Notes under the pieces: generated by a model | Seen by the model: only the letters and a program-made list of their open reading frames with translations | What the model was told of the DNA's origin: nothing | Databases searched by the model: none | Shown: positions 12,887 through 27,587 of the stretch, piece by piece | Layout of the letters: the number at the start of each line of letters is the position of its first letter | How positions within the stretch are numbered: position 1 is the stretch's first letter | Assembly: GCA_963699255.1 (NCBI GenBank) | Contig: OY969425.1 | Coordinates: forward strand, 270,001-302,000 | DNA: 32,000 bases | Direction: 5' to 3' | Source of the DNA: an uncultured bacterium | GTDB taxonomy: Bacteria > Margulisbacteria > WOR-1 > CAVSGV01 | Translations under genes and position numbers: made by a program

Positions 12887-14197
12887 TTATTTGTAAGCAC
12901 GAATAATTATCACTCCGTTCGCGCCGGCTCCGCCAGTTGCGGTATAGGTAGTGGTATTGGATCTTTGCGCGGAACCTCCCGCTCCGCCGCCTCCGTATAA
13001 CGAACCGGCTGTTCCTGTAGTGGCAGTATTGGTAGTAGCTATAAATACACTAGGGCTATGTGTGCTGAATAAGGAATTGCCGCCTGCGCCTGAAATACCG
13101 GAAGTAGATGACAGACGGTATCCCGCTCCGCCGGCGCCGCCCGGAATATTTATATCGCCAGTTGCTCCCGCTGTACCTCCTGCGCCGCCTGCGGCAGTTA
13201 AGGTAGTAGTTCCAGAGGCCATATTTGTACCTCCGCTGCCTCCATTTGCGGTAATAGCGGAAGCATTGAATTGAGTCGGGTTTCCTGCAGTGCCTACGGC
13301 AGTGCTGCCTCCTGCGCCGCCAGTTCCTACTGAGAAAGTATATGTAGTGCCCGGGCTGGTCGCGATACGCTTTATTGTGCATGCTCCGCCGCCTCCGCCT
13401 CCACCCACAGCTCCAGAGGGATTGGCACCAGTAGTACCGCCGGAACCGCCGCCGCCACCACCGATCAAAATAACTTCAATATCAGTTACGCCGGCGGGAA
13501 CAGTAAACGGGCTTGTGCTTGCCGTTGTTAATACTGCGATTCCGGAGAGAACCCCGAGATTTGTTAGGTTCGCTCCGCTGCCGGCAAAAGCAGTTGCGGT
13601 CACGGTTCCTATAAAATTCGCGTCGCCGCTTACGCCAAGAGTCGTGCTGAATGTACTGTATGTTCCGATAGATAATTTATTTTTAAAGGCGCAATAGGAA
13701 TCGCCAACGGAGAGGGAAGGATTGTCCGGATCCGCGGTTGCTCCGGAACCTCCGCCGATGTGAAATGAGGGGTCGCCTGTGCGCGCGCTCGCCGCCCTTG
13801 CTTCAAGTCTGATATTCCGCTGGCCTGATGTCACATCGGCGGTCTTGAAAATAAAATCGATCAGGGTGGTGGTAGGATCTGTCGATTCGTATATCGCGCC
13901 GTTTTCACCGTTCCTGTTGCGCAGGCGCAAGATGGATGAACCGTAGACGTCGCCGTCCTGACGCATGACCAATTCTTTGGAAGCGACAATAGTCCCGCCT
14001 TCCGTTGTGCCGACCCCGATATTTCCGTATACATCCAGCATCTGCACGGGATTTGTTTTTCCGATCGCCACCTGGGTGGTTACATCAACTGTGCCTATCA
14101 CGGTCAAGAACCCCTCGACCGACACATCTTTTGTTACGGCAAAAGCCGGAACAGAAACGATGCATATTATTAATATAAAAAATAGTATATTTTTCAT
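12887..14197 (-). CDS. Secreted glycine-rich repeat protein (paralogue 1), tail-fibre-like N-terminus
   Basis: 436 aa with signal peptide MKNILFFILIICIVSVPAFA. An N-terminal IGKTNPVQMLDVYGNIGVG motif is shared with the giant proteins. The FTVPAGVTDIEVILIGGGGGGSGG entry motif is followed by about 200 aa of Gly/Ala/Thr/Ser-rich sequence ending GVIIIRAYK. Confidence 0.6.
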   Translation of the reverse strand: MKNILFFILIICIVSVPAFAVTKDVSVEGFLTVIGTVDVTTQVAIGKTNPVQMLDVYGNIGVGTTEGGTIVASKELVMRQDGDVYGSSILRLRNRNGENGAIYESTDPTTTLIDFIFKTADVTSGQRNIRLEARAASARTGDPSFHIGGGSGATADPDNPSLSVGDSYCAFKNKLSIGTYSTFSTTLGVSGDANFIGTVTATAFAGSGANLTNLGVLSGIAVLTTASTSPFTVPAGVTDIEVILIGGGGGGSGGTTGANPSGAVGGGGGGGACTIKRIATSPGTTYTFSVGTGGAGGSTAVGTAGNPTQFNASAITANGGSGGTNMASGTTTLTAAGGAGGTAGATGDINIPGGAGGAGYRLSSTSGISGAGGNSLFSTHSPSVFIATTNTATTGTAGSLYGGGGAGGSAQRSNTTTYTATGGAGANGVIIIRAYK

Positions 14198-14221: not shown

Positions 14222-15181
14222 TTAGTAATATACGATAACGAGTCCCGCAGCTCCGGCCCCGCCTGCTCCGCCATTCTCCTGGCCGCCGCCGCCACCGCCG
14301 CCGGGAGGAGTTCCTGCTCTTCCGGCAACGCCCCCTCCAGCGGCATTAGCGCCGGGGCCGCCAGCTCCGCCTGAACCGCCCATCGGGCTTCCGCCTCCTG
14401 TGCCGCCGCTGGCTCCATCAGCTGCTTGAGAATTTCCGCCTGTTCCGCCTGTGAGATTAATTGTCCCGCCTGATCCTGCGCCTCCTGCCCCGCCTGTAGT
14501 TGTGGCTCCTGTTGAACCGCCGGCACCCGTAAAAGTGGTTCCGCCGGCAAAACTGCTGTTGTTGCCGTTTGCTCCGGCGCCTCCGCCGGTTCCAACTGTT
14601 ACGGTCACACTAGCACCGCTTACACTTACAAGACCCGCGCTATAACCTCCGCCTCCGCCTCCGCCTCCGGATGTATTATTGCCTGCCGTTACTCCTCCTC
14701 CTCCTCCTCCCCAAACCTGAACGTAAACTTTACTTACTCCCGCAGGTCTTGTCCATGTTCCGCTGGATGTAAACACTTGTATGTTTTGCGGGACTCCTGT
14801 TCCAGGTACCCAGGCTCTGGTTTCTGACGCTGGGAGGGAAGACGCTTCAAAAGTCACTTTTTTAGTGTTGTCAGCGCCATTCTGGATATATGTGGAAGTA
14901 TCGGTCATGGTCTTATTTGTCAGGGTCTGTGTTTCCGCGGTCATTGCGAAGGTATCATTGGCGCCGGGATCCGATATGGTAAGCGTTCTTGCGGCAGCAG
15001 GGTTGTTCCAAAGAAGCGTGTAATTAGCCGTTGTCTGTTTGAACAGGATATTTGTGTTAAGGTCCAGCTGGCCTTCAATTGTGATATTGCCTGTTACGGC
15101 AAAAGCGCCGCATGAAAAAAATAATACAAGAAAAAAACAGGCAAAATTTCTTTTCATGAATATTCGCTCATAATAATTCAT
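14222..15181 (-). CDS. Secreted glycine-rich repeat protein (paralogue 2)
   Basis: 319 aa. The likely true start is the ATG at 15157 (MKRNFACFFLVLFFSCGAFA signal peptide). It contains the QTLTNKTMTD motif shared with the giant proteins. WTRPAGVSKVYVQVWGGGGGG then leads into a Gly-rich C-terminal half ending GLVIVYY. Confidence 0.6.
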   Translation of the reverse strand: MNYYERIFMKRNFACFFLVLFFSCGAFAVTGNITIEGQLDLNTNILFKQTTANYTLLWNNPAAARTLTISDPGANDTFAMTAETQTLTNKTMTDTSTYIQNGADNTKKVTFEASSLPASETRAWVPGTGVPQNIQVFTSSGTWTRPAGVSKVYVQVWGGGGGGVTAGNNTSGGGGGGGGYSAGLVSVSGASVTVTVGTGGGAGANGNNSSFAGGTTFTGAGGSTGATTTGGAGGAGSGGTINLTGGTGGNSQAADGASGGTGGGSPMGGSGGAGGPGANAAGGGVAGRAGTPPGGGGGGGQENGGAGGAGAAGLVIVYY

Positions 15182-18100
15182 TAATACTTATATATCAGCA
15201 CAGAAACGCTGTTGCCTGATCCTGCCGCGCTTGTTACTGCTATTCCTATCATCTTGCCTGTTTGGAGATTGGAATAACCGTTCACACTGCCGGCAGCCGT
15301 AGATGTGCATATCGCGTCGCCGATGTTTATCGCCTGATTGGCAACTGCGTTCGTTATCCTTCCCGAAACGGCTACATATGCCGTGGTTCCTTCAACGGCC
15401 TGAACGAAACCAACAACATTTGGATCTTTTGCAGTGGTAGATGTTTTTACCGTATTGGCACTTGTCGTATCAAGGACAACAACATTACCCGCCACGACAG
15501 TGCCTGAAAAAGCAAAAGGCACAACAATAAGTCCTGATCCGGAGGTTGAAGTATTTAATCTGGCCGTGTTAGCCGTAACGGTATCTATAGTGACCAGGGC
15601 GGTTGTGCTTATGTCGGAACCGGTTATCGTTCCATTAAGGATCGCATCCGATGTGACCGAGCCTGTTGCCATCTTTGCCGCCGTTATCGTGTTAGACGCA
15701 ATTGCGTCAGAAGTTACTGAACCAGTTGCCATCTTCGCAGCTGTGATGGTGTTAGCCGCGATCGCATCTGAAGTGACTGAACTTGTAGCTATCTTGGCTG
15801 CTGTGATGGTGTTAGCAGCAATAGCATCAGAAGTGATTGAACTGGTTGCCATGTTGGCGGCAGTGATGGTGTTATTACCGAGTTTAGCCCCTGTTATCGC
15901 ATTAGCAGCGATCGCGTCTGAAGTGATTGAACTGGTTGCCATATTAGCGGCAGTGATAGTATTGTTCCCGAGCTTAGCGCCTGTTATCGCGTTAGCGGCA
16001 ATAGCATCTGAAGTGATTGAACCGGTTGCCATATTAACAGCGGTGATAGTGTTGCCTGCGATCTTGGCATTGGTTACCGAACCGCTGGTCAAGTCACCTG
16101 CAACAATGCTGTTGGAGAGGTTCAATTTAGAGTAGGCGATAGCAGCGGATCCGTTAATGTCGACATTGAGTATTGTGCCATCAAGGATGGCGTCTGAAGT
16201 GATAGACCCTGTTGCCATATTGGCAGCAGTGATGGTGTTGTTACCGAGCTTAGCGCCTGTAATCGCGTTAGCCGCGATCGCATCTGAAGTGATTGAACCG
16301 GTAGCCATGTTTGCAGCGGTGATAGTGTTGTTGCCGATTTTTGTGCCTGTTACCGAGCCGCTGGTCAGATCACCGGCGACGATACTATTGGAGAGGTTCA
16401 ATTTAGAGTAGGCGATAGCAGCGGATCCGTTAATGTCGACATTGAGTATTGTGCCATCAAGGATGGCGTCTGAAGTGATAGACCCTGTTGCCATATTGGC
16501 AGCAGTGATGGTGTTGTTACCGAGCTTAGCGCCTGTAATCGCGTTAGCCGCGATCGCATCTGAAGTGATTGAACCGGTAGCCATGTTTGCAGCGGTGATA
16601 GTGTTGTTGCCGATCTTTGTGCCTGTTACCGAGCCACTTGTCAGATCACCGGCGACGATGCTGTTCGATAGGTTCAACTTCGAGTAGGCGATAGCCGCAG
16701 ATCCGTTTATATCCGCATTGAGTATCGTTCCGTCAAGGATCGCATCTGAAGTTACAGAACCTGTTGCCAGCTTTGATGCGGTTATGGCTCCGTCGCTTAC
16801 AGTTGCGGCTGTCGAAGCATTTCCAGCCAAGGTTGCATAGTTTGCTGAGACTGCAGAAGTTGCTGAGCCTGCCAAAGCTGCATAATTGGCTGAAGTGGCA
16901 GTGCCTGCCAAAGTAGCTGAGCCGGCCAAAGTAGCATAGTTAGCATTTGTAGCGAGATCGGCGTAGGCAGCAGTCGATGCATTTCCAGCCAAGGTTGCAT
17001 AGTTAGCTGAGACTGCGGACGTTGCTGAGCCAGCCAAAGTTGCATAATTAGCAGAAGTAGCAGCGCCTGCGGAGGTTGCAGTACCTGCTAGGGCTGCGTA
17101 GTTAGCAGAAGTAGCAGTGCCTGCCAAAGTAGCTGAGCCGGCCAAAGCAGCATAGTTAGCATTTGTAGCGAGATCTGCAGAAGCAGCAGTAGAAGCATTT
17201 CCTGCCAAAGTTGCATAATTGGCGGAAGTTGCAGTCCCTGCAGAAGTAGCAGAGCCAGCTAAGGTTGAGTAGTTTGCAGATGAAGCAGTGACTGCCGAGG
17301 TTGCAGTTCCGGCTAAAGTTGCATAGTTAGCAGAAGTTGCATTTCCTATTACCGTTCCACTAAGAGTCCCGCTGAAGGTCTCTGCGGTTACTATTCCTGT
17401 TACAGCGAGATTGCCTGTTGCCCTGTCAAAAGAATAGGTTTTTGTGCCGCCGTTGTTATTCAGATAAAAATCTTTATCATCTACCCTGAAGATATATTGC
17501 TGGACACCCGCAATAGTATCGAACAATCCAATGCGCATAGGTTTGATGCGTGCGTAACCATAATTATTCCCATCAAAAACGCCTTGAGTATTGGCCCCAA
17601 CTACAACAATACCTTCCGATGTCGCATTTTCGGGATCGCCGTCAGCCGTAAAAGCACCTAATTTTATCACACTGCTATTTTCATAGTTCCATATCATTGT
17701 TCTTCCATATGGGTCGATATTGCCTAATATTATTTTTGCTTTTATTCGATCCGTTTCAGCTGAGATATAGCCTGTTGTGTTGATATTGATGGCCGATGCC
17801 AGATCAACTCCTAATATAGTTCCATCAAGGATCGCATCAGAAGTTACAGAGCCGGTTGCCATTTTTGACGCGGTTATTGCTCCGTCACTTACCGTAGCAG
17901 CGGTAGAAGCATTTCCTGCCAAGGTTGCATAGTTAGCTGATGTGGCAGTGCCTGCGGAAGTTGCAGTAGCTGCCAATGAAGCATAGTTAGCAGAAACAGC
18001 GCTGGTGGCAGTACCAGCTAAAGTTGCATAATTAGCAGAGATAGCAGTTCCTGCTGAAGTTGCAGTACCGGCCAGAGTTGCGTAATTTGCGGAGGCTGCA

Positions 18101-19689
18101 GAGGTTGATGTGCCTGCTAATATCGCATAATTAGCATTTGTAGCGAGGTCAGCTGAGGCAGCAGTGGATGCATTTCCTGCCAAAGCTGCATAGTTAGCTG
18201 AAGTAGCAGTGCCTGCGGAGGTTGCAGTACCCGCTAGAGCCGCATAGTTAGCAGAAGTAGCGGTTCCTGCCGAAGTTGCAGTGCCAGATAAGATCGCATA
18301 ATTTGCATTAGTAGCAAGATCAGCCGACACTGCGGTCGATGCAGTTCCTGACAGGTTTGCGTAATTTGCGGAAGCAGCTGAAGTTGAGATCCCGGCTAAT
18401 GTTGCGAAGTTAGCTGATGTGGCAGTTCCTGCAGAAGTTGCTGTACCGGCCAGAGTTGCGTAATTTGCGGAGGCTGCAGAGGTTGATGTGCCTGCTAATA
18501 TCGCATAGTTAGCATTCGTAGCGAGGTCAGCTGAGGCAGCGGTAGAAGCATTTCCAGCCAAGGTTGCATAATTGGCAGAAGAAGCAGTGCCTGCGGAGGT
18601 TGCAGTACCCGCTAGAGCCGCATAGTTAGCAGAAGTAGCGGTTCCTGCCGAAGTAGCAGTGCCAGATAAGATCGCATAATTTGCATTAGTAGCAAGATCA
18701 GCCGACACTGCGGTCGATGCAGTTCCTGACAGGTTTGCGTAATTTGCGGAAGCAGCTGAAGTTGATATCCCGGCTAATGTTGCGAAATTAGCTGATGTGG
18801 CAGTTCCTGCAGAAGTTGCTGTACCTGCTAGAGCTGCATAATTAGCGGAAGAAGCATTGGTAGCATTTGTTGCGTTGGTAGCGTTATTTGCATTGTTAGC
18901 CCAATCAACTTTTGGAGAGCCAGAAGATCCACCACCGGAGCCAGCCCAGTTAGTGGCATTAGTCGCATTGGTGGCGTTGGTAGCTGAAGCAGCAAGTATC
19001 GCGTAATCAGCAGTAGAAGCACTGGAAGCAGTTCCTGCAGAAGTTGCTGTACCTGCCAGAGTTGCATAATTAGCAGAAGTAGCAGTTCCTGCGGAAGTTG
19101 TAGTGCCGGCCAAAATTGCATAGCTGGCATTTATAGCAAGATCGGCGGATGCAGAGGTAGAAGCATTTCCTGCCAGAGTTGCATAATTAGCAGAAGTAGC
19201 AGTTCCTGCGGAAGTTGCTGAGCCAGCCAAAGCTGCATAGTTAGCTGAAGTAGCAGTTCCTGCCGAAGTTGCAGTGCCAGATAAGATCGCATAATTTGCA
19301 TTTGTGGCAAGATCAGCCGAAGCAGCAGTGGAAGCATTTCCTGCTAGAGCTGCATAATTGGCGGATGAAGCAGTGCTTGCAGAAGTAGCTGTGCCGGCTA
19401 ATGTTGCGAAGTTAGCGCTGGTCGCTGTGATATTTGTGATCGTATTTAGTGAACCATCTATGGTCTTGTTCGTCAGCACTTGAGCATCCGATGTTCCGAC
19501 AATTCGACCAATCGTTCCATGTGAAATAACCTCAGCTGTATGAGTATTGAATGTAGAAAGATCTGTCTTTAAATCAACTGATGACGCAGTCGCGAAGTAG
19601 GAGGGGAGGCTCCCGCCTAATTTGTTCGCGTCTTCGGACGTTCCCATGACCGTTCCGTTAAATGTCCCGCTGAACGATTCGGCTGTCAC
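15181..19689 (-). CDS. Giant repeat fibre protein B, C-terminal portion (no own signal peptide; reading frame is open and homologous up to 19815)
   Basis: 1502 aa.
- The N-terminal about 90 aa align with aa about 610-700 of the 2022-aa protein ([20 protein letters not shown]...[21 protein letters not shown]).
- Next come long Ala/Ser/Thr 'SANYAxLAG' 18/21-residue repeats.
- A unique globular insert of about 150 aa follows.
- Decapeptide 'xITxxx[ILM]xx[GN]' repeats come next.
- The last about 120 aa form a C-terminal domain shared with the 2022-aa protein.
Only a GTG is available as a start, and the upstream in-frame sequence is homologous to the paralogue. Confidence 0.7.
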   Translation of the reverse strand: MTAESFSGTFNGTVMGTSEDANKLGGSLPSYFATASSVDLKTDLSTFNTHTAEVISHGTIGRIVGTSDAQVLTNKTIDGSLNTITNITATSANFATLAGTATSASTASSANYAALAGNASTAASADLATNANYAILSGTATSAGTATSANYAALAGSATSAGTATSANYATLAGNASTSASADLAINASYAILAGTTTSAGTATSANYATLAGTATSAGTASSASTADYAILAASATNATNATNATNWAGSGGGSSGSPKVDWANNANNATNATNATNASSANYAALAGTATSAGTATSANFATLAGISTSAASANYANLSGTASTAVSADLATNANYAILSGTATSAGTATSANYAALAGTATSAGTASSANYATLAGNASTAASADLATNANYAILAGTSTSAASANYATLAGTATSAGTATSANFATLAGISTSAASANYANLSGTASTAVSADLATNANYAILSGTATSAGTATSANYAALAGTATSAGTATSANYAALAGNASTAASADLATNANYAILAGTSTSAASANYATLAGTATSAGTAISANYATLAGTATSAVSANYASLAATATSAGTATSANYATLAGNASTAATVSDGAITASKMATGSVTSDAILDGTILGVDLASAININTTGYISAETDRIKAKIILGNIDPYGRTMIWNYENSSVIKLGAFTADGDPENATSEGIVVVGANTQGVFDGNNYGYARIKPMRIGLFDTIAGVQQYIFRVDDKDFYLNNNGGTKTYSFDRATGNLAVTGIVTAETFSGTLSGTVIGNATSANYATLAGTATSAVTASSANYSTLAGSATSAGTATSANYATLAGNASTAASADLATNANYAALAGSATLAGTATSANYAALAGTATSAGAATSANYATLAGSATSAVSANYATLAGNASTAAYADLATNANYATLAGSATLAGTATSANYAALAGSATSAVSANYATLAGNASTAATVSDGAITASKLATGSVTSDAILDGTILNADINGSAAIAYSKLNLSNSIVAGDLTSGSVTGTKIGNNTITAANMATGSITSDAIAANAITGAKLGNNTITAANMATGSITSDAILDGTILNVDINGSAAIAYSKLNLSNSIVAGDLTSGSVTGTKIGNNTITAANMATGSITSDAIAANAITGAKLGNNTITAANMATGSITSDAILDGTILNVDINGSAAIAYSKLNLSNSIVAGDLTSGSVTNAKIAGNTITAVNMATGSITSDAIAANAITGAKLGNNTITAANMATSSITSDAIAANAITGAKLGNNTITAANMATSSITSDAIAANTITAAKIATSSVTSDAIAANTITAAKMATGSVTSDAIASNTITAAKMATGSVTSDAILNGTITGSDISTTALVTIDTVTANTARLNTSTSGSGLIVVPFAFSGTVVAGNVVVLDTTSANTVKTSTTAKDPNVVGFVQAVEGTTAYVAVSGRITNAVANQAINIGDAICTSTAAGSVNGYSNLQTGKMIGIAVTSAAGSGNSVSVLIYKY
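16114..16665 (-). repeat. 276-bp (92-aa) in-frame tandem duplication, 2 near-identical copies plus degenerate flanking copies
   Basis: 16114-16389 and 16390-16665 differ at only a handful of positions. The antisense ORFs at 16157-16411 and 16433-16687 have near-identical translations. The repeat encodes SAAIAYSKLNLSNSIVAGDLTSGSVTGTKIGNNTITAANMATGSITSDAIAANAITGAKLGNNTITAANMATGSITSDAILDGTILNVDING. Confidence 0.9.
18060..18816 (-). repeat. 378-bp (126-aa) in-frame tandem duplication within the SANYA stalk
   Basis: Sequence starting at 18066 (taccggccagagttgcgtaatttgcggaggctgcagagg...) recurs at 18444. Sequence at 18301 recurs at 18679. The offset is exactly 378 bp, with high identity. Confidence 0.85.
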
Positions 19690-20681
19690 AACACCAGATG
19701 TGTTGATGTTGATATTGGATGCAAGGGAACCGCCCGATATTTTATTTGTTGAGGTATCAACTTTGATCCAGTCAACACCGGATATTTGTGAATTAGATAT
19801 ACCGGAATTTTTACTTCAAGTGAACCATTACCATTCAGATCAACAGTGACATTATCGTACTTATTTGTTGCGGCTTCACCGGTCGGACCAATAAGGCCTT
19901 GAATTCCTTGAGGCCCGGCTTCACCAGTTAAGCCTATAGGACCTTGGGGACCAATAGCTCCAGTCTCACCAGTTGCACCGATAGGGCCTTGAATTCCTTG
20001 AGGCCCGGCTTCACCAGTTAATCCGATAGGACCTTGGGGACCAATAGCGCCAGTTTCACCAGTTGCACCGATAGGACCTTGAATTCCTTGAGGGCCGGCT
20101 TCACCGGTTAATCCGATAGGGCCTTGTATACCTTGAGGCCCGGCTTCACCAGTTAATCCGATAGGACCTTGTGGACCAACAGCGCCAGTCTCACCGGTTA
20201 GACCGATCGGCCCTTGCATTCCTTGAATGCCTTGGATACCTTGAGGGCCAGCTTCACCGGTTGGGCCTTGTGGGCCTGCTTCGCCCGATGCCCAGATCGG
20301 ATTTTGAGATGCGCCTTGGGTCTTTAAAAAGTATCCGCTGGTTCCTGCCGTAAGACTTGCCCAATTTGTCCCATTGAAATAAAGAATATCTCCTTGAACC
20401 TGGCCGGGAATGTTAAGACCCGCAGCCATCGATGCCGTTCCTGATAAAGGGGTGTAATTTGCCGTGATATTTGAAAGAGCAGAGCCGTTTCCAATGAAGA
20501 AGTCTGCTTCAACCGTGCCTCCGTTAGCCAGTATTCCCGACGGCGTGAATAATTGAGATTCTATCGTTGCAGCTCCCAGAACTATAAGACCACCGGGGAC
20601 CTTTAATCCCAGGGCAACAGGATACGCAGCACCTCCAAACAGGAAGATCAGAATCAGTACGGTAAGTACCATTCTTTTCAT
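19686..20681 (-). CDS. Giant repeat fibre protein B, N-terminal portion (signal peptide + collagen-like domain)
   Basis: 331 aa with signal peptide MKRMVLTVLILIFLFGGAAYP. The block [35 protein letters not shown] is homologous to the 2022-aa protein. There are 46 uninterrupted Gly-X-Y triplets, then ATNKYDNVTVDLNGNGSLEVK. The last 40 codons are out-of-frame nonsense relative to the paralogue. Confidence 0.7.
   Translation of the reverse strand: MKRMVLTVLILIFLFGGAAYPVALGLKVPGGLIVLGAATIESQLFTPSGILANGGTVEADFFIGNGSALSNITANYTPLSGTASMAAGLNIPGQVQGDILYFNGTNWASLTAGTSGYFLKTQGASQNPIWASGEAGPQGPTGEAGPQGIQGIQGMQGPIGLTGETGAVGPQGPIGLTGEAGPQGIQGPIGLTGEAGPQGIQGPIGATGETGAIGPQGPIGLTGEAGPQGIQGPIGATGETGAIGPQGPIGLTGEAGPQGIQGLIGPTGEAATNKYDNVTVDLNGNGSLEVKIPVYLIHKYPVLTGSKLIPQQIKYRAVPLHPISTSTHLVL
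19872..20287 (-). repeat. Collagen-like Gly-X-Y region (46 triplets)
   Basis: Hand count of uninterrupted [18 protein letters not shown] ... GPT GEA triplets, covering aa 133-270 of the 331-aa ORF. Confidence 0.9.
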
Positions 20682-20726: not shown

Positions 20727-23700
20727 TTAGAATTTATGGATCCAGATCGTGACTGTCCCTCCCGAATCATTGGTCAATGCTATGCCTATGCATGCGCCAA
20801 CCGTCAAATCGCCGGGTACGGACTGTATTTTGCCGGGCGCTAAGTCTGTTTCAACAGCATCTCCGCGGTGTATCGTACCTGTCGCTTTCGCGTTGGTCAC
20901 CCTGCCGGAGTATGCGACATATACTGTCTGGCCCGCGGCGGTTGTTGTGTTCATCGCAAAGCCCATCACGCCCTGGTCCGCTTCAACCGTTGTTTCCCTT
21001 ACCTGATTATCGGCGCTAGGATCATAGGCCACAACATCCCCGGCCGCTATGGCTGAAGCCGCTGTCATTGGAAGTGCAATGGTGCCGCTGCCGGAAGTGG
21101 AACTGTCGCTTAAATATGCATTTTTGCCGCTCGGGATAACAACATCCCCGCCGTTAAAGGATTCGGCCGTAACATATCCGCTCGTGCTGATATTGATCGC
21201 GCTAGATACGTTTGCCGCCGTTGAAGCAGTCCCTGCCAATGTAGCATAATCAGCGGAAACGGCGGTAGTAGAAGTTCCCGCCAGAGTCGCATAATTTGCT
21301 GTTGCTGCATTTGTGGCCGTGACTCCGGTCAGCTTCGATCCATCACCGTAGAATCTGCCGGTTGAGGATTCGATAGAAGCTGAACCGATCTTGACATTTC
21401 CGTTGACTGACAACTCATATCCCGCTTCGGGGGTCAAAGTTCCCAAGCCGGTGCTGCCATTCATAACAAGGAACCTTCCGGTATCAGCAGCGCTACCGCC
21501 GCTCCCCAAACTGACCTTGAAATCTCCGCCCTTTGTGCCGGGTCCGCCCGAGCCGGTCCCTGTAGTAAAGAGCATGCTTCCTCCCGCCACCCCACCTCCG
21601 AGGCCTGCAGTAAAAGAAAACCCGCCGGCGTTTATGCTGCCCGAAGAGGCCGTGAAAGAGAAAGAACCGCCGCCGCCGGACCCGCCTCCGGTGGACATTG
21701 ATATTCCTCCACCAACGCCGCTGGCCGTAGCGCCGGAAACTGTAAATGTTCCTCCGGTACCTCCGGGAGAAGTATTAGCACCGCCTGTTAGAATTACGCT
21801 GCCACCCGCGCCTGATCCTATTGGCCCGCTACCGGCGGTCAATCTAATGGCTTCTCCCGATGTGCCGTCATTGCCGCCCACGACATGCAGGACACCGGTC
21901 GGATTTGAAGTCCCGATGCCGACGTTGCCGCCAAAAGTGGCCCCTGCCGAATTAGTCAAAGTTCCCGTCATGATATCGCCGGCCTTAAGGACTGCTGTCG
22001 TGGCAACTGTTGAAGTGCCGGACAAAGTTGCATAAGCTGCGGCAGCCGCAGTCGATACCGTGCCAGCTAAATCAGCATAATTAGCTGTGTTAGAATTTCC
22101 AGAGCAAGTAGAGGATGTTCCTGATAAAGCAGCGAAATCAGCAGAGGCGGCAGAAGTTGCAGTTCCTGCCAAGGTTGCATAATTAGCAGAAGCGGCAGTA
22201 GTAGAAGTTCCTGCCAGGGTCGAATAATTTGCCGTTGCTGCATTTGTTGCCGTTATGCCGGTCAGCGCCGATCCATCGCCGTAATATTTGCCGGTTGAGG
22301 ATTCAATAGAAGCTGAACCGATCTTGACATTTCCGATGACAGAGAGCCTGATTCCGGCTTCCGGGGTCAATGTTCCTATCCCGACGTTGCCGCCCATAAA
22401 AGTAAATTTAGCATTATTTCCACCTTCGGAGAGATTCGTAAAGAACATAGATCCGGGTGTTGGAGAATTGGACAGGATGAAATTAAGATCGCCGGCATTG
22501 CCAGCACTGCCGCCTACACCCGTCGTTAATGTTATATTACCCCCTTTTTCATTTTCGCCCGCGGAGGTAGTTCCATTTTGGCCTGTTATGGTTATAGCCG
22601 CCCCCGGATTGCCGCTTGGGGCGCTTCCGCCATTTACGCTTAAAATTCCTCTAACATCCAGCTTCGCTCCCGGACTCGTGGTTCCAATGCCGACGTTGCC
22701 GCCTGAAACAATAAGTTGATTAGTACCGACTGTTAATCCGCTTGCGGGCAAGGTCAGAGTTCCGGTCATGGTGTCGCCGGCTTTTAGCACATTGTCTGAG
22801 GCCGCGCCCGAACAGGCGGACGAAGTTCCACTCAAAGTAGCAAAATCAGCAGAAGAGGCGGTAGTAGCAGTTCCTGCCAAAGACGCGTAATTTGCAGCAG
22901 CCGCAGCCGATACCGTTCCAGCTAAATCAGCATAATTAGCTGTGTTAGAATTTCCAGAGCAAGTAGAGGATGTTCCTGATAAAGCAGCGAAATCAGCAGA
23001 GGCGGCAGAAGTTGCAGTTCCTGCCAAGGTTGCATAATTAGCAGAAGCGGCAGTAGTAGAAGTTCCTGCCAGGGTCGAATAATTTGCCGTTGCTGCATTT
23101 GTTGCCGTTATGCCGGTCAGCGCCGATCCATCGCCGTAATATTTGCCGGTTGAGGATTCAATAGAAGCTGAACCGATATTGACATTTCCGTTTACTGACA
23201 ATTCGTATCCGGCTTCCGGAGTCATCGTTCCCAATCCGATGCTGCCGTTCATAACGCTGAATCTTCCGTTATCGGCGGCACTGCCACCGCTACCCAAATT
23301 GACCCTAAAATCCCCGCCCCTTGTGCCGGGCCCACCCGAGCCAATTCCTGTAGTAAATGTCATTCCCCCTCCCGTACCTCCGCCGCCGAGGCCGGCAGTA
23401 AAGGAAAATCCGCCGCCGGCACCGGCCCCTGAAGCAGCCGTGAAAGAGAAAGAACCGTTACCGCCGGATCCTGCTGCGGAGGTCATTGATATACCCCCGC
23501 CTCCGCCGCCGATTGAACCGCCGGAAACTGTTATCGCTGCTCCGCCAGCACCGGGAGAAAGAGAACCACCACCATTTATCAGGACACTACCACCCGCGCC
23601 TCCTCCTGCTGGTCCAGCACCCGCAATCAATCGAATGGATTCTCCCGATACGCCGTTGTTGTCGCCCACAACATGCAGTTTTCCTGTCGGACTCGTCGTC

Positions 23701-26700
23701 CCGATGCCGACATCGCCTCCTATGACAACAAGTTGACTGGTGCCGACCAATAAACCGCTGGCGGGCAGAGTCAAAGTTCCGGTCATGGTATCGCCGGCCT
23801 TAAGGACTGCTGTCGTGGCAACCGTTGAAGTGCCGGACAAAATTGCGTAATCTGCAAAAGCTGCAGTCGATGCCGTTCCAGCTAAATCAGCATAATTAGC
23901 TGTGTTAGAATTTCCAGAGCAAGTAGAGGATGTTCCTGATAAGATCGCGTAAGAAGCTGAGCCTGAACAGGATGACGCAGTTCCACTCAAAGTCGCATAA
24001 CCCGCATTAGTTGCTGTTCCACTTAAAGTTGCGTATACTGCGGTTGAAGATGTGCCGGATAATACGGCATAATTTGCCGTCGTTGCCGTGACCCCGGTCA
24101 GCGCAGATCCGTCGCCGTAATATTTGCCTCCGGCTTCCAGAGTGATGCTTCCAGCCACCTGAAGTTTTTGTAAAGGATTCGTTGTCCCGATGCCGACATT
24201 GCCGACCGCATTAGAGCCATTATGCGCTAAAATAACATTACCCGAAGTCCCCCCCGTAATCCCAGATACATAAACAGAACCACCATTTGGCCCGGCACCC
24301 CCAAAAAGATACAGGTTGCCTGGAGTGCCGCTGCTAGATCCCGCCTGTACAGTAAGATTTCTACCAGTGGTAGCTTCACCTTGTATGGATATGGTTCTGG
24401 CGGCTCCCGAAGATAGCAGGATATTACCGTTAACCTCAAGGCTTGCTCCCGGACTCGTTGTCCCGATGCCGACCTTGCCGCCTGAAACAACCAGTTGACT
24501 GGTGCCGACTGTTAAACCGTTTGCGGGCAAAGTCAGCGTTCCTGTCATTGTATCGCCGGCCTTAAGGACTGCTGTGGTGGCAACTGTTGAAGTGCCGGAC
24601 AAGGTTGCATAATTTGCATTGGCCGCGGTGACATTTGTAATTGTATTGAGCGAGCCGTCTATTGTCTTATTGGTCAGCACTTGAGCATCCGATGTCCCGA
24701 CTATCTGGCCGGTCGTTCCGTGCGCTATCACTTCACCTGTATGGGTATTGAAGGTGGCAAGGTCAGCCTTAGATTCAACTGATGCCGCTGTTGCAAAGTA
24801 GGAGGGGAGGTTACCGCCTAACCTGTTCGTGTCCTCGGAAGTACCCGTGAATGTCCCGCTGAACGCTGTCGCGGTTACAAGTCCTGTTGTGTTGATATTT
24901 ATATTCGTTGCAAGAGCGCTGTCCGCTATCTTATTCGTGGCCGTGTCAATTTTGCTCCAGTCAACCCCCGATATTTGCGAATTGGATATACCCAAAGCTT
25001 TTACCTCAAGTGACTGATTGCCATTCAGATCAACAGTGATATTATCGTACTTATTTGTTGCGGCTTCACCGGTTAATCCGATAGGTCCTTGAGGACCGAC
25101 AGCACCAGCTTCACCAGTCAAACCGATAGGACCTTGAGGACCGATAGCTCCAGTTTCACCAGTCAAACCGATAGGACCTTGAGGACCGATAGCTCCAGTT
25201 TCACCAGTAGGACCAACAGCGCCAGTCTCACCTGTTAAACCAATAGGACCTTGAATGCCTTGAATACCTTGTGGTCCGGCTTCACCAGTTAAGCCTATAG
25301 GACCTTGCGAACCGACAGCGCCAGTTTCGCCAGTTGCACCAGTTAGACCTTGAATTCCCTGAATACCTTGTATACCTTGAGGACCTGCTTCACCAGTTAA
25401 ACCTATAGGACCTTGCGGACCGACAGCGCCAGTTTCGCCAGTTGCACCAGTTAGACCTTGAATTCCCTGAATACCTTGTATACCTTGAGGACCTGCTTCA
25501 CCAGTTAAACCTATAGGACCTTGCGGACCGACAGCGCCAGTTTCGCCAGTTGCACCAGTTAGACCTTGAATTCCCTGAATACCTTGTATACCTTGAGGAC
25601 CTGCTTCACCAGTTAAGCCTACAGGACCTTGAGGACCGATAGCTCCGGTTTCTCCTGTTGCACCAGTCAGACCAATAGGACCTTGAATTCCTTGAATACC
25701 TTGAAGGCCTTGAATGCCTTGTAAACCTTGAGGCCCAGCTTCGCCAGTCAGACCGATCGGACCTTGAATTCCCTGTAAACCTTGAGGTCCTGCTTCGCCA
25801 GTTGGACCTTGCGGGCCTGCTTCGCCCGATGCCGGCGCCCAGATCGGATTTTGAGATGCGCCCTGGGTCTTGAGGAAAAGTCCATTAGTTCCTGCTGTAA
25901 GCCTTGTCCATCTTGATCCATTGTAATACAGAACATCACCTTGCGATGCGGCATCTGTTGTTACAACAGTTGAAGATAATCTTGTGTTGCTGATCGTCCC
26001 TGATGTGATATTCGTCGCGCTCAGGTTTGTGAGAGAGTTGCTTCCTCCGTCCAAAGTTTTGTTGGTCAATGTTTGCGCGTCCGTTGTAGTTACGACCACG
26101 TTCGTATCGATCGTTAAAGTTCCTGTCGCTGTTATCGGGCCTCCAAGCAATCCTACACTTGTGTTGACCTGGGTGACAGTGCCTCCGCCCCCTCCGCCTC
26201 CTGTTGCAGATATTTCGATCGTTTGACCGCTTTGAGAGAGAGAGACATTCGTTCCGCCTTTAAGGATTACAGTTCCAGTTAAAACAGTCGCGCCGGATGA
26301 GGATATTCCTGTAACAGAGACCGGAAATATTGAAGAGGCGAGTTTTCCAGTGCCGTCGGTAAACGGAATTATGTCGGCTCCCGACGCTTCTATCGATTTT
26401 CCAGCGACTGTTGTTGAATCGTCCGCCTGAAGCGCCCTGTACGCGTGCGCCGCGCTCGCTATCTGGACCCTTGGCGTCATTTCGCCGTCCGATCCGATCT
26501 CAACACCCAACCATCTGTTCGAGCCGTTAAAAGCATTGGACTGGAAAAAAATTGCCGCGCTGAATATGCCGTTGCTGTCCGGAGTAAGAGCTTCCGTGGA
26601 TGTGCCGTTCGTGACTGGAACGCCGCCGCTTGCCTGGCTGTATAACCTGAATGTGAAGCTTTGGGAAGTTGTTACGGGATTGCCGCTTGAATCCGTCAGC

Positions 26701-26795
26701 CGTCCCTCATAACCAATTATTTGCGGTATTGCCGCATAACACACCCCTGCGAAGAGTGATAATATGAACAGTAAAAAGATAAATTTCTTGAACAT
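20727..26795 (-). CDS. Giant secreted fibre protein A: N-terminal domain, collagen-like stalk, four tail-fibre-like units with glycine-rich inserts, conserved C-terminal domain
   Basis: 2022 aa with signal peptide [21 protein letters not shown] and a GGGAGGG Shine-Dalgarno sequence.
- 85 uninterrupted Gly-X-Y triplets span aa 324-578.
- 'LKAGD(T/I)MTGTLT ... (V/I)GIGT(T/S)(S/N)P' occurs four times.
- '(Y/F)YGDGS(A/K)LTG(V/I)TAT' occurs four times.
- SANYA-type stalk repeats and Gly-rich blocks are present (e.g. [29 protein letters not shown]).
- The C-terminal about 125 aa are homologous to the end of the 1502-aa ORF. Confidence 0.8.
22063..22322 (-). repeat. 260-bp perfect intragenic repeat, copy 1
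   Basis: Base-for-base identical to 22918-23177 (offset 855 bp) on manual alignment. It encodes the stalk segment ...[82 protein letters not shown]. Confidence 0.9.
22918..23177 (-). repeat. 260-bp perfect intragenic repeat, copy 2 (a third 65-bp copy of its core lies at 23878-23942)
   Basis: Identical to 22063-22322. The first 65 bp (ccagctaaatcagcataattagctgtgttagaatttccagagcaagtagaggatgttcctgataa) also recur at 23878-23942. Confidence 0.9.
25062..25828 (-). repeat. Collagen-like Gly-X-Y region (85 triplets) containing a 108-bp tandem repeat
   Basis: Hand count gives 85 uninterrupted triplets. 108-bp (12-triplet) units start at 25321, 25429 and 25537 and are nearly identical. They encode [36 protein letters not shown] three times. 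Confidence 0.9.
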
Positions 26796-27013: not shown

Positions 27014-27532
27014 TTATTCCAGCTTTGCGTCTTTTACTTCAATGTCCCATGAACCCTTATCTGTGACAAGAAGGAACTGTATCTTAAAGAGTTTCTTTAT
27101 TTTCCCTTCAAGGGGAACGGATATGGTCGCATATTCATCATCTTTAAGCGTGAACGAGGTTTTTGTCACGGACGGGGTATAGTCGTCATCCTTTTCATCA
27201 TAAACCTGAACAACGGGGAAGCACCACTGCCCCTGTTTGATCAGTTTGCCCCTGATGGCGAAAGTGAAGTATTTCGGGTTGGAAACGTCTTTGTCTATTT
27301 TTTCAAAATAAACGCCGGGATCCGTCGCGTCATTCGCAAATATCCTTATGAGGTTCTCCTTGTATTCGTATTCGCAGTTGTTGAAAGCGCCTGAAGATTT
27401 TGCGGCATAGAGGATATTATCCTTTGAGGCCTGATCATCGTTCTTTGTTGCCTGATCGTCGTTCGCGGGTTGGACGAACCCGCAGGCCAGGACCACAAGC
27501 AGTAATGCTACGGAGATTTTTAATGAACGCAT
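27014..27532 (-). CDS. Lipoprotein of unknown function
   Basis: The ORF track extends to a GTG at 27577. However, the ATG at 27532 has a GAGGA Shine-Dalgarno sequence and yields MRSLKISVALLLVVLAC-G, a lipobox (VLAC). A promoter lies inside the longer version. I recognise no conserved family. Confidence 0.6.
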   Translation of the reverse strand: MRSLKISVALLLVVLACGFVQPANDDQATKNDDQASKDNILYAAKSSGAFNNCEYEYKENLIRIFANDATDPGVYFEKIDKDVSNPKYFTFAIRGKLIKQGQWCFPVVQVYDEKDDDYTPSVTKTSFTLKDDEYATISVPLEGKIKKLFKIQFLLVTDKGSWDIEVKDAKLE

Positions 27533-27558
27533 ATATTCCTCTGTGTATTTATCGTAAC

Positions 27559-27587
27559 ATTTTACCGGAAAATTCACTAAATTTCAA
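27559..27587 (-). promoter_or_regulatory. Sigma70-type promoter for the lipoprotein gene
   Basis: On the minus strand: TTGAAA (27582-27587), a 17-nt spacer, then TAAAAT (27559-27564). It lies about 27 nt upstream of the ATG at 27532. Confidence 0.45.

What the first reader, a model, noticed from the sequence alone, without database searches (positions are those of the whole stretch)
21100..24620. Four concatenated tail-fibre-like units in one polypeptide, each with a glycine-rich insert
After the collagen stalk, protein A repeats a composite unit four times. LKAGD motifs are encoded near 24555, 23785, 22775 and 21975.

Each unit has this layout:
1. An SANYA-type Ala/Ser/Thr stalk.
2. LKAGD(T/I)MTGTLT...[16 protein letters not shown].
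3. A Gly-rich block of about 150-200 aa (e.g. [52 protein letters not shown]).
4. IGLGT(L/M)TPEAG(Y/I)(E/R)LSV(N/I)GNV(K/N)[26 protein letters not shown].

Unit 3 carries a different insert ([42 protein letters not shown]). The motifs GDTMTGxL and GDGSxLTG are, to my knowledge, typical of phage and viral fibre proteins, where they normally occur once per fibre.

A beads-on-a-string array of four such units on a collagen stalk is unusual. It suggests multivalent or multi-specific binding.
Basis: partly seen in the sequence, partly recalled or inferred. Interest (0 to 1): 0.6.

Follow-up and report, generated by a model that had tools for sequence, protein, structure and literature searches.

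The report
Bacterial surface fibre with four beta-helix modules
A 2,022-residue secreted fibre protein of an uncultured Margulisbacteria bacterium really does repeat one composite module four times, but that module is the loop-capped beta-helix already known from phage tail fibres and Bdellovibrio adhesin fibres, and strings of such modules are common, so this is an ordinary if elaborate member of a known kind.

Summary
**Observation: confirmed.** One ORF (window 20727-26795, minus strand, 2,022 aa) has a signal peptide, a conserved N-domain and 85 uninterrupted collagen triplets. Four homologous units follow, with LKAGD at aa 744, 998, 1337 and 1603.

**What a unit is.** Each unit has a GDxMTG head and a VGIGTTxP capping loop. 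A Gly/Ser/Thr-rich body follows, with 6 (U1, U3) or 9 (U2, U4) amphipathic strands. It ends in a second capping loop and a [12 protein letters not shown] tail.

**Closest relatives.** A profile of the four units matches the solved trimeric beta-helix tips of Bdellovibrio MAT fibres (Bd2133 E=5e-11, Bd3182 E=2e-6). The so-called Gly-rich insert is therefore the beta-helix body itself.

**Interpretation: partly supported.**
- The unit is tail-fibre-like.
- It is not normally single-copy. The unit profile hits 50,394 cluster representatives, and the best hits carry 8-53 matched stretches each.
- Other Margulisbacteria fibres have at least 4 to 6 units.
- The genome encodes six proteins with this N-domain and differing C-terminal parts, as in the MAT family.
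- An orthologue fragment has a YadA-head body inside the same head/tail frame, so the bodies are swappable cassettes.

**Limits.** Both AlphaFold monomer models were poor, and read mapping was unavailable.

**Verdict.** This is a MAT-like trimeric surface fibre and a new member of a known kind. An earlier scan note covers the same operon.

The parts
26733..26795 (-). Sec-type signal peptide (aa 1-21). The predicted cleavage is after C-Y-A and before A-I-P-Q.
   Evidence: Read directly from the translation. Homologues P0003, P0005 and P0026 have the same signal peptide and the same A/T-I/V-P start of the mature protein.
26421..26732 (-). Conserved N-terminal domain (aa 22-125), probably the end of the fibre nearest the cell, which anchors it.
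   Evidence: It is shared with large fibres of several phyla. Six ORFs in this genome carry it. After one profile iteration it reaches the N-termini of Bdellovibrio sp. fibre proteins (E 1e-7 to 5e-9 in a small database).
25830..26420 (-). N-proximal shaft (aa 126-322), Thr/Ser/Gly-rich, containing a TNKTLD motif.
   Evidence: Translation. No family match.
25062..25826 (-). Collagen triple-helix segment: 85 uninterrupted Gly-X-Y triplets (aa 324-578), built from 108-nt DNA repeats.
   Evidence: PF01391 E=1.3e-25. Triplet count. DNA repeats D1 and D2.
24579..25061 (-). Linker and first stalk (aa 579-739). It is paralogous to the junction region of the neighbouring split fibre.
24081..24578 (-). 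Unit 1 (aa 740-905): GDTMTG head, proximal cap, 73-aa body of 6 strands, distal cap, [12 protein letters not shown] tail.
   Evidence: The PDB match to Bd2133 covers this unit.
23817..24080 (-). Stalk 1 (aa 906-993): Ala/Ser/Thr/Gly-rich, with ANYA-type repeats and two Cys residues.
23100..23816 (-). Unit 2 (aa 994-1232): same frame, with a 138-aa body of 9 strands (37% Gly).
22800..23099 (-). Stalk 2 (aa 1233-1332). Y/F-x-x-L recurs mostly every 15 residues. It is 93% nt-identical to stalk 3.
22245..22799 (-). Unit 3 (aa 1333-1517): same frame, with an 84-aa body of 6 strands of a third sequence type.
22002..22244 (-). Stalk 3 (aa 1518-1598).
21312..22001 (-). Unit 4 (aa 1599-1828): shortened head, with a 138-aa body of 9 strands that is 68% identical to the body of unit 2.
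21159..21311 (-). Stalk 4 (aa 1829-1879).
20730..21158 (-). C-terminal tip domain (aa 1880-2022), resembling the Phage_cement_2 family (DUF2190). It is shared with the neighbouring fibre and with the orthologue.
   Evidence: PF09956 E=2.1e-7, 31.7 bits against a cut-off of 24; 2 of 3 members match. Alignment A3. Only two copies exist in the genome.

Best explanation
**What it is.** The gene encodes a Sec-exported, homotrimeric cell-surface fibre of a Margulisbacteria-class bacterium. It is built on the same plan as the 'mosaic adhesive trimer' (MAT) fibres of Bdellovibrio.

**Layout from cell to tip.**
1. A conserved N-terminal domain holds the fibre at the cell surface.
2. An 85-triplet collagen triple helix, about 73 nm long, forms a long stalk.
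3. Four rigid beads follow, separated by Ala/Ser/Thr-rich stalks with hydrophobic residues mostly every 15 residues.
4. A small C-terminal domain resembling phage cement proteins caps the distal end.

**What each bead is.** Each bead is a three-sided, intertwined trimeric beta-helix closed at both ends by a capping loop (V-G-I-G-T-x-x-P-x-x-x-L). The Gly-rich 'insert' is the helix body. It has 6 strands per chain in units 1 and 3 and 9 strands per chain in units 2 and 4, which I read as about two and three turns.

**What the beads most likely do.** They mainly lock the three chains in register and stiffen and lengthen the shaft that presents the tip. Any ligand binding by their surfaces is secondary.

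**Frame and cassette.** The conserved head (LKAGDxMTG plus cap) and tail (cap plus [12 protein letters not shown]) form a frame into which different bodies can be fitted.

**Shown.** The sequence anatomy, the homology of the units to solved MAT beta-helices, the commonness of arrays, the gene family in this genome, and the cassette difference in the orthologue.

**Inferred.** Trimer formation, the turn count, the fibre dimensions, surface anchoring and an adhesive role.
For: - **Anatomy and repeat structure:**
- **Cellular context:** the window carries flagellar genes, rho, a Mur ligase and a histidine kinase, and no phage genes.
- **Unit profile against PDB sequences:**
  - With the four window units alone: 8OND Bd2133 E=4.6e-11, with cap-to-cap alignment over its first beta-helix domain; 8OJN/8ONB/8ONC E=2e-6.
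  - With 19 homologues added: 8OND 2e-19, 8OML 1e-13, 8ON4, 8OL4 and MyRF 7DC3 8e-6.
- **Published structures (PMC10769870):**
  - These regions are trimeric beta-helices bounded by two identical capping loops.
  - Bd2133 has two such helices in tandem.
  - They superpose on phage K1F and T5 S74 fibres.
- **Body length:** the short bodies (73-84 aa) match the roughly 82 aa between the Bd3182 caps at R656-H669 and F752-H765.
- **Arrays are the norm:**
- **N-domain:**
  - It is shared with fibres in many phyla.
  - After one profile iteration it also matches Bdellovibrio sp. proteins that carry the same head.
- **Gene family in this genome:**
  - Six N-domain ORFs have different C-terminal parts.
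  - The tip occurs only in the two window fibres.
- **Cassette difference in the orthologue:** orthologue fragment P0002 has a YadA_head body (PF05658, E=3.7e-19) between the same head and tail.
Against: - No confident 3-D model was obtained. The AlphaFold2 monomer of unit 2 had pLDDT 56 and gave no Foldseek hit. The tip model had pLDDT 41. The fold assignment therefore rests on sequence profiles plus published structures.
- The GDxMTG head is not covered by any solved structure.
- The N-domain link to Bdellovibrio needed one profile iteration in a small database. It was not tested against the B. bacteriovorus HD100 MAT proteins themselves.
- The tip matches only part of PF09956 (profile positions 47-101 of 103). 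It has no PDB or PHROG match.
- There is no experimental evidence for localisation, trimerisation or any ligand.
- Only 2 of 20 related genomes have strong unit matches, so the function is accessory.
Confidence: 0.7

Rival explanations
1. Each of the four beads is an independent receptor-binding module, so one fibre binds several ligands (multi-specific) or one ligand with high avidity (multivalent).
For: - In S74-type fibres the beta-helix surface forms a cleft between the two capping loops, and the phage relatives use it for glycan binding (PMC10769870).
- The bodies fall into three sequence types (29-42% identity).
- The orthologue replaces one body with YadA-head repeats. From general knowledge, not tested here, that is an adhesive fold in trimeric autotransporters.
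Against: - The bodies are 52-69% Gly/Ala/Ser/Thr with few aromatic or charged residues. That is poor material for specific pockets.
- U2 and U4 are 68% identical in their bodies.
- Bd2133's beta-helices lack the cleft.
- Relatives carry up to 53 matched stretches per chain, which is more easily read as shaft building.
Confidence: 0.17
2. A non-adhesive structural fibre: a component of a surface coat, sheath or spacer layer that sets cell-to-cell or cell-to-surface distance, with no specific ligand.
For: - The operon also encodes a second fibre, two secreted Gly_rich_2 proteins and an SLH-anchored PorV-like barrel.
- The composition is very low in complexity.
- The tip resembles a capsid cement or decoration protein rather than a lectin.
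Against: - Distribution is patchy even within the family and class.
- The genes form a mosaic family with swapped C-terminal parts. Both features are typical of fast-evolving recognition proteins.
- The closest characterised relatives are adhesins (PMC10769870).
Confidence: 0.09
3. A tail fibre of a prophage, tailocin or contractile injection system, not a cellular surface protein.
For: - PHROG tail-fibre families hit the protein.
- Head-plus-cap modules occur on some uncultured viral contigs.
- The tip matches a phage cement family.
Against: - The PHROG hits lie in or next to the collagen segment (best stretches within aa 285-754), apart from one weak hit over aa 849-948.
- No capsid, tail, baseplate, terminase or integrase gene was found in the 32-kb window.
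- The protein has a Sec signal peptide and the cellular N-domain, which five other chromosomal ORFs also carry.
- Synteny with rho and a Mur ligase is conserved in a relative.
- The unit, head and tail hit 1, 0 and 1 of 50,697 phage records.
Confidence: 0.03
4. The four units are an assembly artefact, that is, collapsed or duplicated repeats.
For: - The gene is highly repetitive.
- One 300-nt stretch is 96% identical between two places.
- The orthologue's contig breaks inside the gene.
Against: - The units differ at 13-28% of DNA positions, and their bodies fall into three types.
- The reading frame is open over 6,069 nt.
- The genome is a single 1.77-Mb contig.
- An independent assembly shows the same multi-unit design.
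Confidence: 0.01

Closest known systems
Bdellovibrio bacteriovorus mosaic adhesive trimer (MAT) fibres (Bd2133, Bd3182, Bd1334, Bd2439; Caulton et al. 2024, PMC10769870; PDB 8OND, 8OJN/8ONB/8ONC, 8OML, 8OL4)
   Same: - A signal peptide followed by a conserved N-domain of about 100-130 aa.
- A long trimeric shaft.
- Beta-helix domains bounded by two V-G-I-(G/N)-x-x-x-P-x-x-x-L capping loops.
- A non-S74 alternative tip, and a multi-gene family with swapped distal parts.
- Tandem beta-helices, which already occur in Bd2133.
   Different: - The host is a Margulisbacteria-class bacterium that is not known to be predatory.
- An 85-triplet collagen helix is inserted in the shaft. The word 'collagen' does not occur in the MAT paper.
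- There are four beta-helix modules, spaced by Ala/Ser/Thr stalks of 81-100 aa.
- Each module is framed by a GDxMTG head and a [12 protein letters not shown] tail.
- The tip resembles Phage_cement_2.
- The protein is about twice the typical MAT length.
Phage S74-type tail fibres and tailspikes (T5 L-shaped tail fibre pb1, PDB 4UW8; K1F endosialidase, PDB 3GW6) and the many 'tail fiber domain-containing proteins' ending in Peptidase_S74 (PF13884)
   Same: - The same capped triple beta-helix module (structural equivalence taken from PMC10769870).
- Many sequence relatives of the unit end in PF13884.
   Different: - P0001 has no S74 intramolecular chaperone (no PF13884 hit).
- It is chromosomal and carries a signal peptide.
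- Direct sequence searches did not reach the phage structures.
Bacterial collagen-like surface proteins (streptococcal Scl1/Scl2, Legionella Lcl, Bacillus BclA)
   Same: A secreted trimeric protein with a long Gly-X-Y stalk presenting globular domains. NCBIfam Lcl and Scl models hit the collagen part.
   Different: - All scores are far below the family cut-offs (170 against 500 bits, and similar), so only the collagen part is shared.
- There is no LPXTG anchor.
- The non-collagen parts are unrelated.
Chlorovirus fibre glycoprotein Vp260 (PBCV-1 A122/123R, P22 in PDB 8H2I) and the Chlorovirus glycoprotein repeat PF06598
   Same: The unit's tail motif (aromatic-x-GDGSxLTG) matches Vp260 (E=1.5e-4). 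Vp260 forms a homotrimeric beta-helical fibre (PMC9617893).
   Different: - Only about 27 residues match.
- PF06598 itself does not score on P0001.
- In Vp260 the profile matched two stretches, so there too the motif is not single-copy.
Trimeric autotransporter adhesins (YadA family)
   Same: A beads-on-a-string trimeric design of alternating heads and stalks. The orthologue P0002 carries true YadA_head repeats in one unit.
   Different: No autotransporter membrane anchor was detected. P0001 itself has no YadA_head repeats.

Membership tests
MAT-like trimeric surface fibres (Caulton et al. 2024) | N-terminal signal peptide | tested here: met
   A typical Sec leader at aa 1-21 is read from the translation. 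It is conserved in homologues.
MAT-like trimeric surface fibres (Caulton et al. 2024) | Conserved beta-rich domain of about 130 aa immediately after the signal peptide | tested here: inconclusive
   - A conserved domain (aa 22-125) is present. It is shared with fibres of many phyla and with 5 other ORFs of this genome.
- After one profile iteration it hits Bdellovibrio sp. HCB288 and HCB274 and Bdellovibrionaceae proteins that carry the same unit head (E 5e-9 to 7e-7; small database).
- It was not compared with the HD100 MAT proteins themselves.
MAT-like trimeric surface fibres (Caulton et al. 2024) | Trimeric beta-helix bounded by two capping loops (V-G-I-G/N-x-x-x-P-x-x-x-L) | tested here: met
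   - Two cap motifs per unit.
- The profile of the window units aligns cap to cap with the Bd2133 beta-helix (E=4.6e-11) and with Bd3182 (E=2e-6).
- This is met at sequence level only; the 3-D model was of low confidence.
MAT-like trimeric surface fibres (Caulton et al. 2024) | Homotrimer formation | not testable with these tools
   Only monomer prediction is offered. Eighty-five collagen triplets imply a three-chain helix, from established knowledge of collagen.
MAT-like trimeric surface fibres (Caulton et al. 2024) | Multi-gene family with exchanged distal domains | tested here: met
   - Six N-domain ORFs in the genome.
- The unit is strong only in this ORF.
- The tip occurs only in two ORFs.
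- The orthologue has a different cassette.
MAT-like trimeric surface fibres (Caulton et al. 2024) | Surface display and a role in recognising other cells | not testable with these tools
   This needs microscopy and binding assays.
Peptidase S74 / intramolecular chaperone tail-fibre proteins (PF13884) | C-terminal S74 chaperone-protease domain | tested here: not met
   No PF13884 hit on P0001 at E<=0.01. The C-terminus is a different domain. Many relatives of the unit do have PF13884.
Collagen triple-helix repeat proteins (PF01391) | Long uninterrupted Gly-X-Y run | tested here: met
   PF01391 E=1.3e-25, above the cut-off. There are 85 consecutive triplets at aa 324-578.
Phage_cement_2 / DUF2190 (PF09956) | Full-length match above Pfam's gathering score | tested here: inconclusive
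   - The score of 31.7 bits exceeds the cut-off of 24 (E=2.1e-7).
- The best stretch covers only profile positions 47-101 of 103.
- Two of 3 tip sequences match.
- There is no PHROG or PDB match, and the model was of low confidence.
Chlorovirus glycoprotein repeat (PF06598) | Match to the Pfam model | tested here: not met
   - No PF06598 hit on P0001 or on the two units scanned, U1 and U2.
- The neighbouring ORF scores below the cut-off (16.9 against 27 bits).
- A short profile match to Vp260 exists.

The most novel reading that the evidence does not exclude
The conserved head (LKAGDxMTG plus cap), the tail (cap plus [12 protein letters not shown]) and the ANYA-type stalks may be more than structural joints. 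They could serve as DNA-level recombination handles that let beta-helix or adhesin cassettes be swapped in and out of fibre genes. That would give this streamlined 1.77-Mb bacterium a combinatorial surface-recognition repertoire.

Three observations are compatible with this reading:
- The frames keep 48-92% identical codons at identical residues, against 19-44% for bodies of different types.
- One tail-plus-stalk segment is about 96% identical between two positions.
- An orthologue carries a YadA-head cassette in the same frame.
Probability: 0.22. Interest if true: 0.5.

Novelty: new member of a known kind. Interest (0 to 1): 0.3.

Why it matters
The result extends the phage-tail-fibre-like MAT fibre design from predatory Bdellovibrio to an uncultured Margulisbacteria lineage. 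The same capped beta-helix module is shown combined with a long collagen helix, spaced repeats and a cement-like tip.

The practical value is for annotation. The VGIGTxxP pairs mark beta-helix modules, and the Gly-rich stretch between them is the helix body rather than an insertion or disordered filler. The module is found in at least 50,000 protein clusters.

A family of six such fibres in a 1.77-Mb genome hints that attachment to other cells or surfaces matters for this organism. It does not open a new kind of system.

Tried and rejected
- **AlphaFold2 monomer of unit 2** with a 23-sequence alignment gave pLDDT 56 and pTM 0.30. Foldseek against the PDB then found nothing. This was expected for one chain of an intertwined trimer, so the model was not used as evidence.
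- **AlphaFold2 of the tip** with 3 sequences gave pLDDT 41. It was not used, and no fold search was run on it.
- **Tip searched for small stand-alone relatives:** none found.
- **Tip profile against PDB sequences:** only chance-level hits.
- **Tip against PHROGs:** nothing.
- **Stalk plus distal part of unit 2 against the PDB:** only a chance hit to a lectin. The fold of the stalk remains unknown.
- **Pfam on single units:** no family.
- **Phage records:** the whole unit, the head and the tail gave 1, 0 and 1 phage hits.
- **Prophage or tailocin origin:** considered and rejected on gene context.
- **Literature search** for Margulisbacteria fibres: nothing relevant found.

Full report
**1. What is in the sequence**

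The finding lies inside one open reading frame, window 20727-26795 on the minus strand, 2,022 aa.

- The LKAGD motif is encoded at 24566-24552, 23804-23790, 22787-22773 and 21989-21975 (aa 744, 998, 1337, 1603).
- GDGSxLTG lies at aa 894, 1221, 1506 and 1817.
- A G(I/L)GT..P motif occurs twice in each unit.
- The four units (aa 740-905, 994-1232, 1333-1517, 1599-1828) align over their whole length, with 53 invariant columns.

Two details need correction. The Gly-rich body between the two G(I/L)GT..P motifs is 73, 138, 84 and 138 aa long (21-37% Gly), not 150-200 aa. Unit 1 has a short divergent body just as unit 3 does.

**2. Not an artefact**

- At DNA level the units are 72-87% identical.
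- Only one 300-nt stretch, the end of a unit plus the following stalk, is 96% identical between two places.
- The frame stays open for 6 kb, and the genome is a single 1.77-Mb contig.
- The orthologue in an independent metagenome assembly (P0002) is cut by the start of its contig. It still shows at least four units and the same C-terminus.

**3. Context**

The window is chromosomal. It carries flagellar export, hook and switch genes, rho, a Mur ligase, a histidine kinase, queF and polyamine genes, and no phage genes.

The organism is a Margulisbacteria-class bacterium:
- The closest large homologues of the fibre are named Candidatus Saganbacteria and Margulisiibacteriota.
- A same-class genome (G019) has a hit on a contig of the same length, 45,604 bp, as the Saganbacteria contig that carries P0013 and L028.
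- Earlier scan notes on this genome say the same.

Downstream in the same direction lie:
- a second fibre gene, split in two (19686-20681 plus 15181-19689);
- two secreted Gly_rich_2 proteins;
- a small protein with a weak T9SS-type tail;
- a PorV-like barrel with an SLH domain.

The fibre, a protein of about 289 aa, an SLH-domain protein of similar size (585 aa) and rho are syntenic in the relative. PorV-likeness of the relative's SLH protein was not tested.

**4. What the unit is**

*Matches to solved structures.* A plain sequence search of aa 701-2022 against all PDB chains gave one hit, Bd2133 of Bdellovibrio bacteriovorus (8OND, E=0.0015).
- A profile made only of the four window units raises this to E=4.6e-11. 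It adds Bd3182 (8OJN/8ONB/8ONC, E=2e-6).
- A profile that also includes 19 short homologues gives 8OND 2e-19, 8OML 1e-13, 8ON4, 8OL4 and the S74 protein MyRF (7DC3, 8e-6).

*What the published structures show.* Caulton et al. 2024 (PMC10769870) solved these Bdellovibrio structures.
- The matched regions are intertwined trimeric beta-helices whose two ends are closed by capping loops of identical structure.
- Bd2133 has two such helices in tandem.
- The helices superpose on the S74 fibres of phages K1F and T5 (RMSD 2.4-2.5 Å).
- In the alignments the Bd2133 caps read V-G-I-(G/N)-x-x-x-P-x-x-K-L, the same as [12 protein letters not shown] here.

*Reading of the unit.* Each unit is proximal cap, beta-helix body, distal cap. 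The 'glycine-rich insert' is the body.
- The body consists of amphipathic strands (hydrophobic-x-hydrophobic) spaced 10-20 residues apart, mostly 14-17.
- There are six strands in units 1 and 3, and nine in units 2 and 4.
- Multiples of three fit a three-sided helix with about two or three turns per chain. This is an inference.
- The short bodies (73-84 aa) equal the roughly 82 residues between the Bd3182 caps.

*The head and the tail.* The head (LKAGDxMTG) precedes the first cap and is not covered by any solved structure. The tail ([12 protein letters not shown]) matches the chlorovirus fibre protein Vp260 (8H2I chain P22, E=1.5e-4). Vp260 forms a homotrimeric beta-helical fibre (PMC9617893).

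*Structure predictions.* My own predictions did not help. One chain of unit 2 folded with pLDDT 56 and found no Foldseek match.

**5. How common arrays are**

- The unit profile, run against 1.84 billion cluster representatives, finds 50,394 proteins at E<=0.001, 12,185 at E<=1e-10 and 1,007 at E<=1e-30.
- The best 150 are 950-7,725 aa long, with 8-53 matched stretches each.
- Among 144 of them (P0155-P0298) the median number of cap motifs per protein is 22.
- Many relatives end in the S74 chaperone (PF13884) and are named 'tail fiber domain-containing protein'.

Strings of capped beta-helix modules in one chain are therefore the rule, not an oddity.

The full frame with head and tail is less common. 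Only 2 of those 144 proteins have at least two heads and two tails. It does recur in the same phylum:
- a Margulisiibacteriota ORF with six heads;
- another ORF with a collagen segment plus many caps and seven tails;
- two Saganbacteria ORFs with four heads each.

The head motif is found in Bdellovibrionaceae, Pseudobdellovibrionaceae, Elusimicrobia, Verrucomicrobiota, Geobacteraceae, Woesearchaeota and others. It also occurs on a few uncultured viral contigs. It is nearly absent from sequenced phage genomes.

**6. Frame and cassette**

Within the protein, heads, tails and stalks are much more alike than bodies of different types:
- Heads and tails are 50-85% identical at amino-acid level, and 48-84% of identical residues use the same codon.
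- One stalk pair (stalks 2 and 3) is 93% identical at both the amino-acid and nucleotide level, with 92% of identical residues using the same codon.
- Bodies of different types are 29-42% identical, with 19-44% same codons.

In the orthologue P0002, one unit keeps the head and the tail but contains YadA_head repeats instead of a Gly-rich helix (PF05658, E=3.7e-19). The body is thus an exchangeable cassette. This agrees with the 'mosaic' principle described for MAT fibres.

**7. The rest of the protein**

- **Signal peptide and N-domain.** After the signal peptide comes a domain (aa 22-125) shared with large fibres of several phyla and with five other ORFs of this genome. After one profile iteration it matches the N-termini of Bdellovibrio sp. 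proteins that carry the same unit head.
- **Collagen.** The segment is 85 uninterrupted triplets. At 0.286 nm per residue, a textbook value, that is about 73 nm.
- **Stalks.** They are 68-75% Ala/Ser/Thr/Gly, with Tyr/Phe-x-x-Leu mostly every 15 residues. Their fold is unknown.
- **Tip.** The last 143 residues match Pfam Phage_cement_2 (PF09956, 31.7 bits against a cut-off of 24, but a partial match). The neighbouring fibre (40% identity) and the orthologue (78% identity) share this domain. It occurs nowhere else in the genome.

**8. Mechanism**

The best-supported reading, with about 0.7 confidence, is a Sec-exported homotrimeric surface fibre of the MAT type.
- The N-domain sits at the cell.
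- The collagen helix and the stalks provide reach.
- The four capped beta-helices lock chain register and stiffen the shaft.
- The tip, and possibly some cassettes, make contact with a target.

The Gly/Ala/Ser/Thr-dominated bodies and the similarity of units 2 and 4 weaken it. So do the absence of a cleft in Bd2133 and the very long arrays in relatives. Prophage origin and assembly error are unlikely.

**9. Novelty**

This is a new member of a known kind.

What departs from the described MAT proteins:
- the collagen insert;
- the spacing of the modules by stalks;
- the head/tail frame;
- the cement-like tip;
- the host lineage.

None of these is a new principle. An earlier first-stage note of this scan (e1-2527876) describes the same operon.

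Noticed in passing
window 19800-19818 (ORFs 19686-20681 and 15181-19689, minus strand): The 331-aa collagen ORF and the 1,502-aa ORF are one paralogue of the fibre, split at a run of five A in GTA-AAA-ATT. Reading one base back restores ...[16 protein letters not shown]..., which parallels [16 protein letters not shown] in the intact fibre. The cause could be a homopolymer error, a pseudogene, phase variation or ribosomal slippage. It could not be checked with reads.
   Followed up: partly
own genome G000:C1 at 199531-199836, 832760-833071, 1247831-1248133, 1254062-1254364 and 1259032-1259334: Five further ORFs (867-1,707 aa) carry the same N-terminal domain (36-75% identity). Three of them lie in a cluster at 1.24-1.26 Mb and have weak unit matches. 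Together with this ORF they form a small family of mosaic fibres in a 1.77-Mb genome.
   Followed up: partly
L001:2122-2961 (orthologue P0002, aa 686-965): One unit of the orthologous fibre carries YadA_head repeats (PF05658, E=3.7e-19) between the conserved head and tail. Another unit is preceded by an unassigned domain of about 150 aa (aa 270-420).
   Followed up: partly
window 12887-14197 and 14222-15181 (minus strand): Two secreted proteins with the Gly_rich_2 domain (PF21722, E=1.5e-18 and 1.4e-10) lie directly downstream of the fibres. One carries the cap-like stretch V-A-I-G-K-T-N-P-x-x-M-L-D-V, and the other a QTLTNKT motif like those in the fibres.
   Followed up: no
window 10217-11989 and 11994-12863 (minus strand): A PorV/PorQ-family barrel (NF033709, 98.6 bits against a cut-off of 90) is fused to an SLH domain. 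It is preceded by a 289-aa secreted protein with a weak T9SS-type C-terminal tail. A protein of about 289 aa and an SLH-domain protein of similar size keep the same positions next to the orthologous fibre (L001). This could be the export or anchoring partner of the fibres.
   Followed up: no
window 22009-22308 and 22864-23163: A 300-nt stretch covering the end of a unit and most of the following stalk is 96% identical between units 2 and 3, while the bodies differ. This suggests a recent duplication or gene conversion limited to the frame.
   Followed up: partly
window 21159-24080 (stalks, aa 906-993, 1233-1332, 1518-1598, 1829-1879): The Ala/Ser/Thr-rich stalks have Tyr/Phe-x-x-Leu mostly every 15 residues (19 where an [10 protein letters not shown] stretch intervenes). 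Stalks 1-3 have one or two Cys each. The fold is unknown, and no PDB or Pfam match was found.
   Followed up: partly
L043 (Candidatus Margulisiibacteriota isolate Prado142, scaffold_0): Another Margulisiibacteriota fibre ORF (over 2,200 aa) combines the N-domain, a collagen segment, about 20 cap motifs, seven GDGS tails and two GDxMTG heads. The pairing of collagen with multiple units therefore recurs in the phylum.
   Followed up: partly
window 27014-27577 (minus strand): A 187-aa ORF between the fibre gene and the histidine kinase has a hydrophobic N-terminal stretch and matches no family in Pfam, PHROGs or NCBIfam.
   Followed up: no
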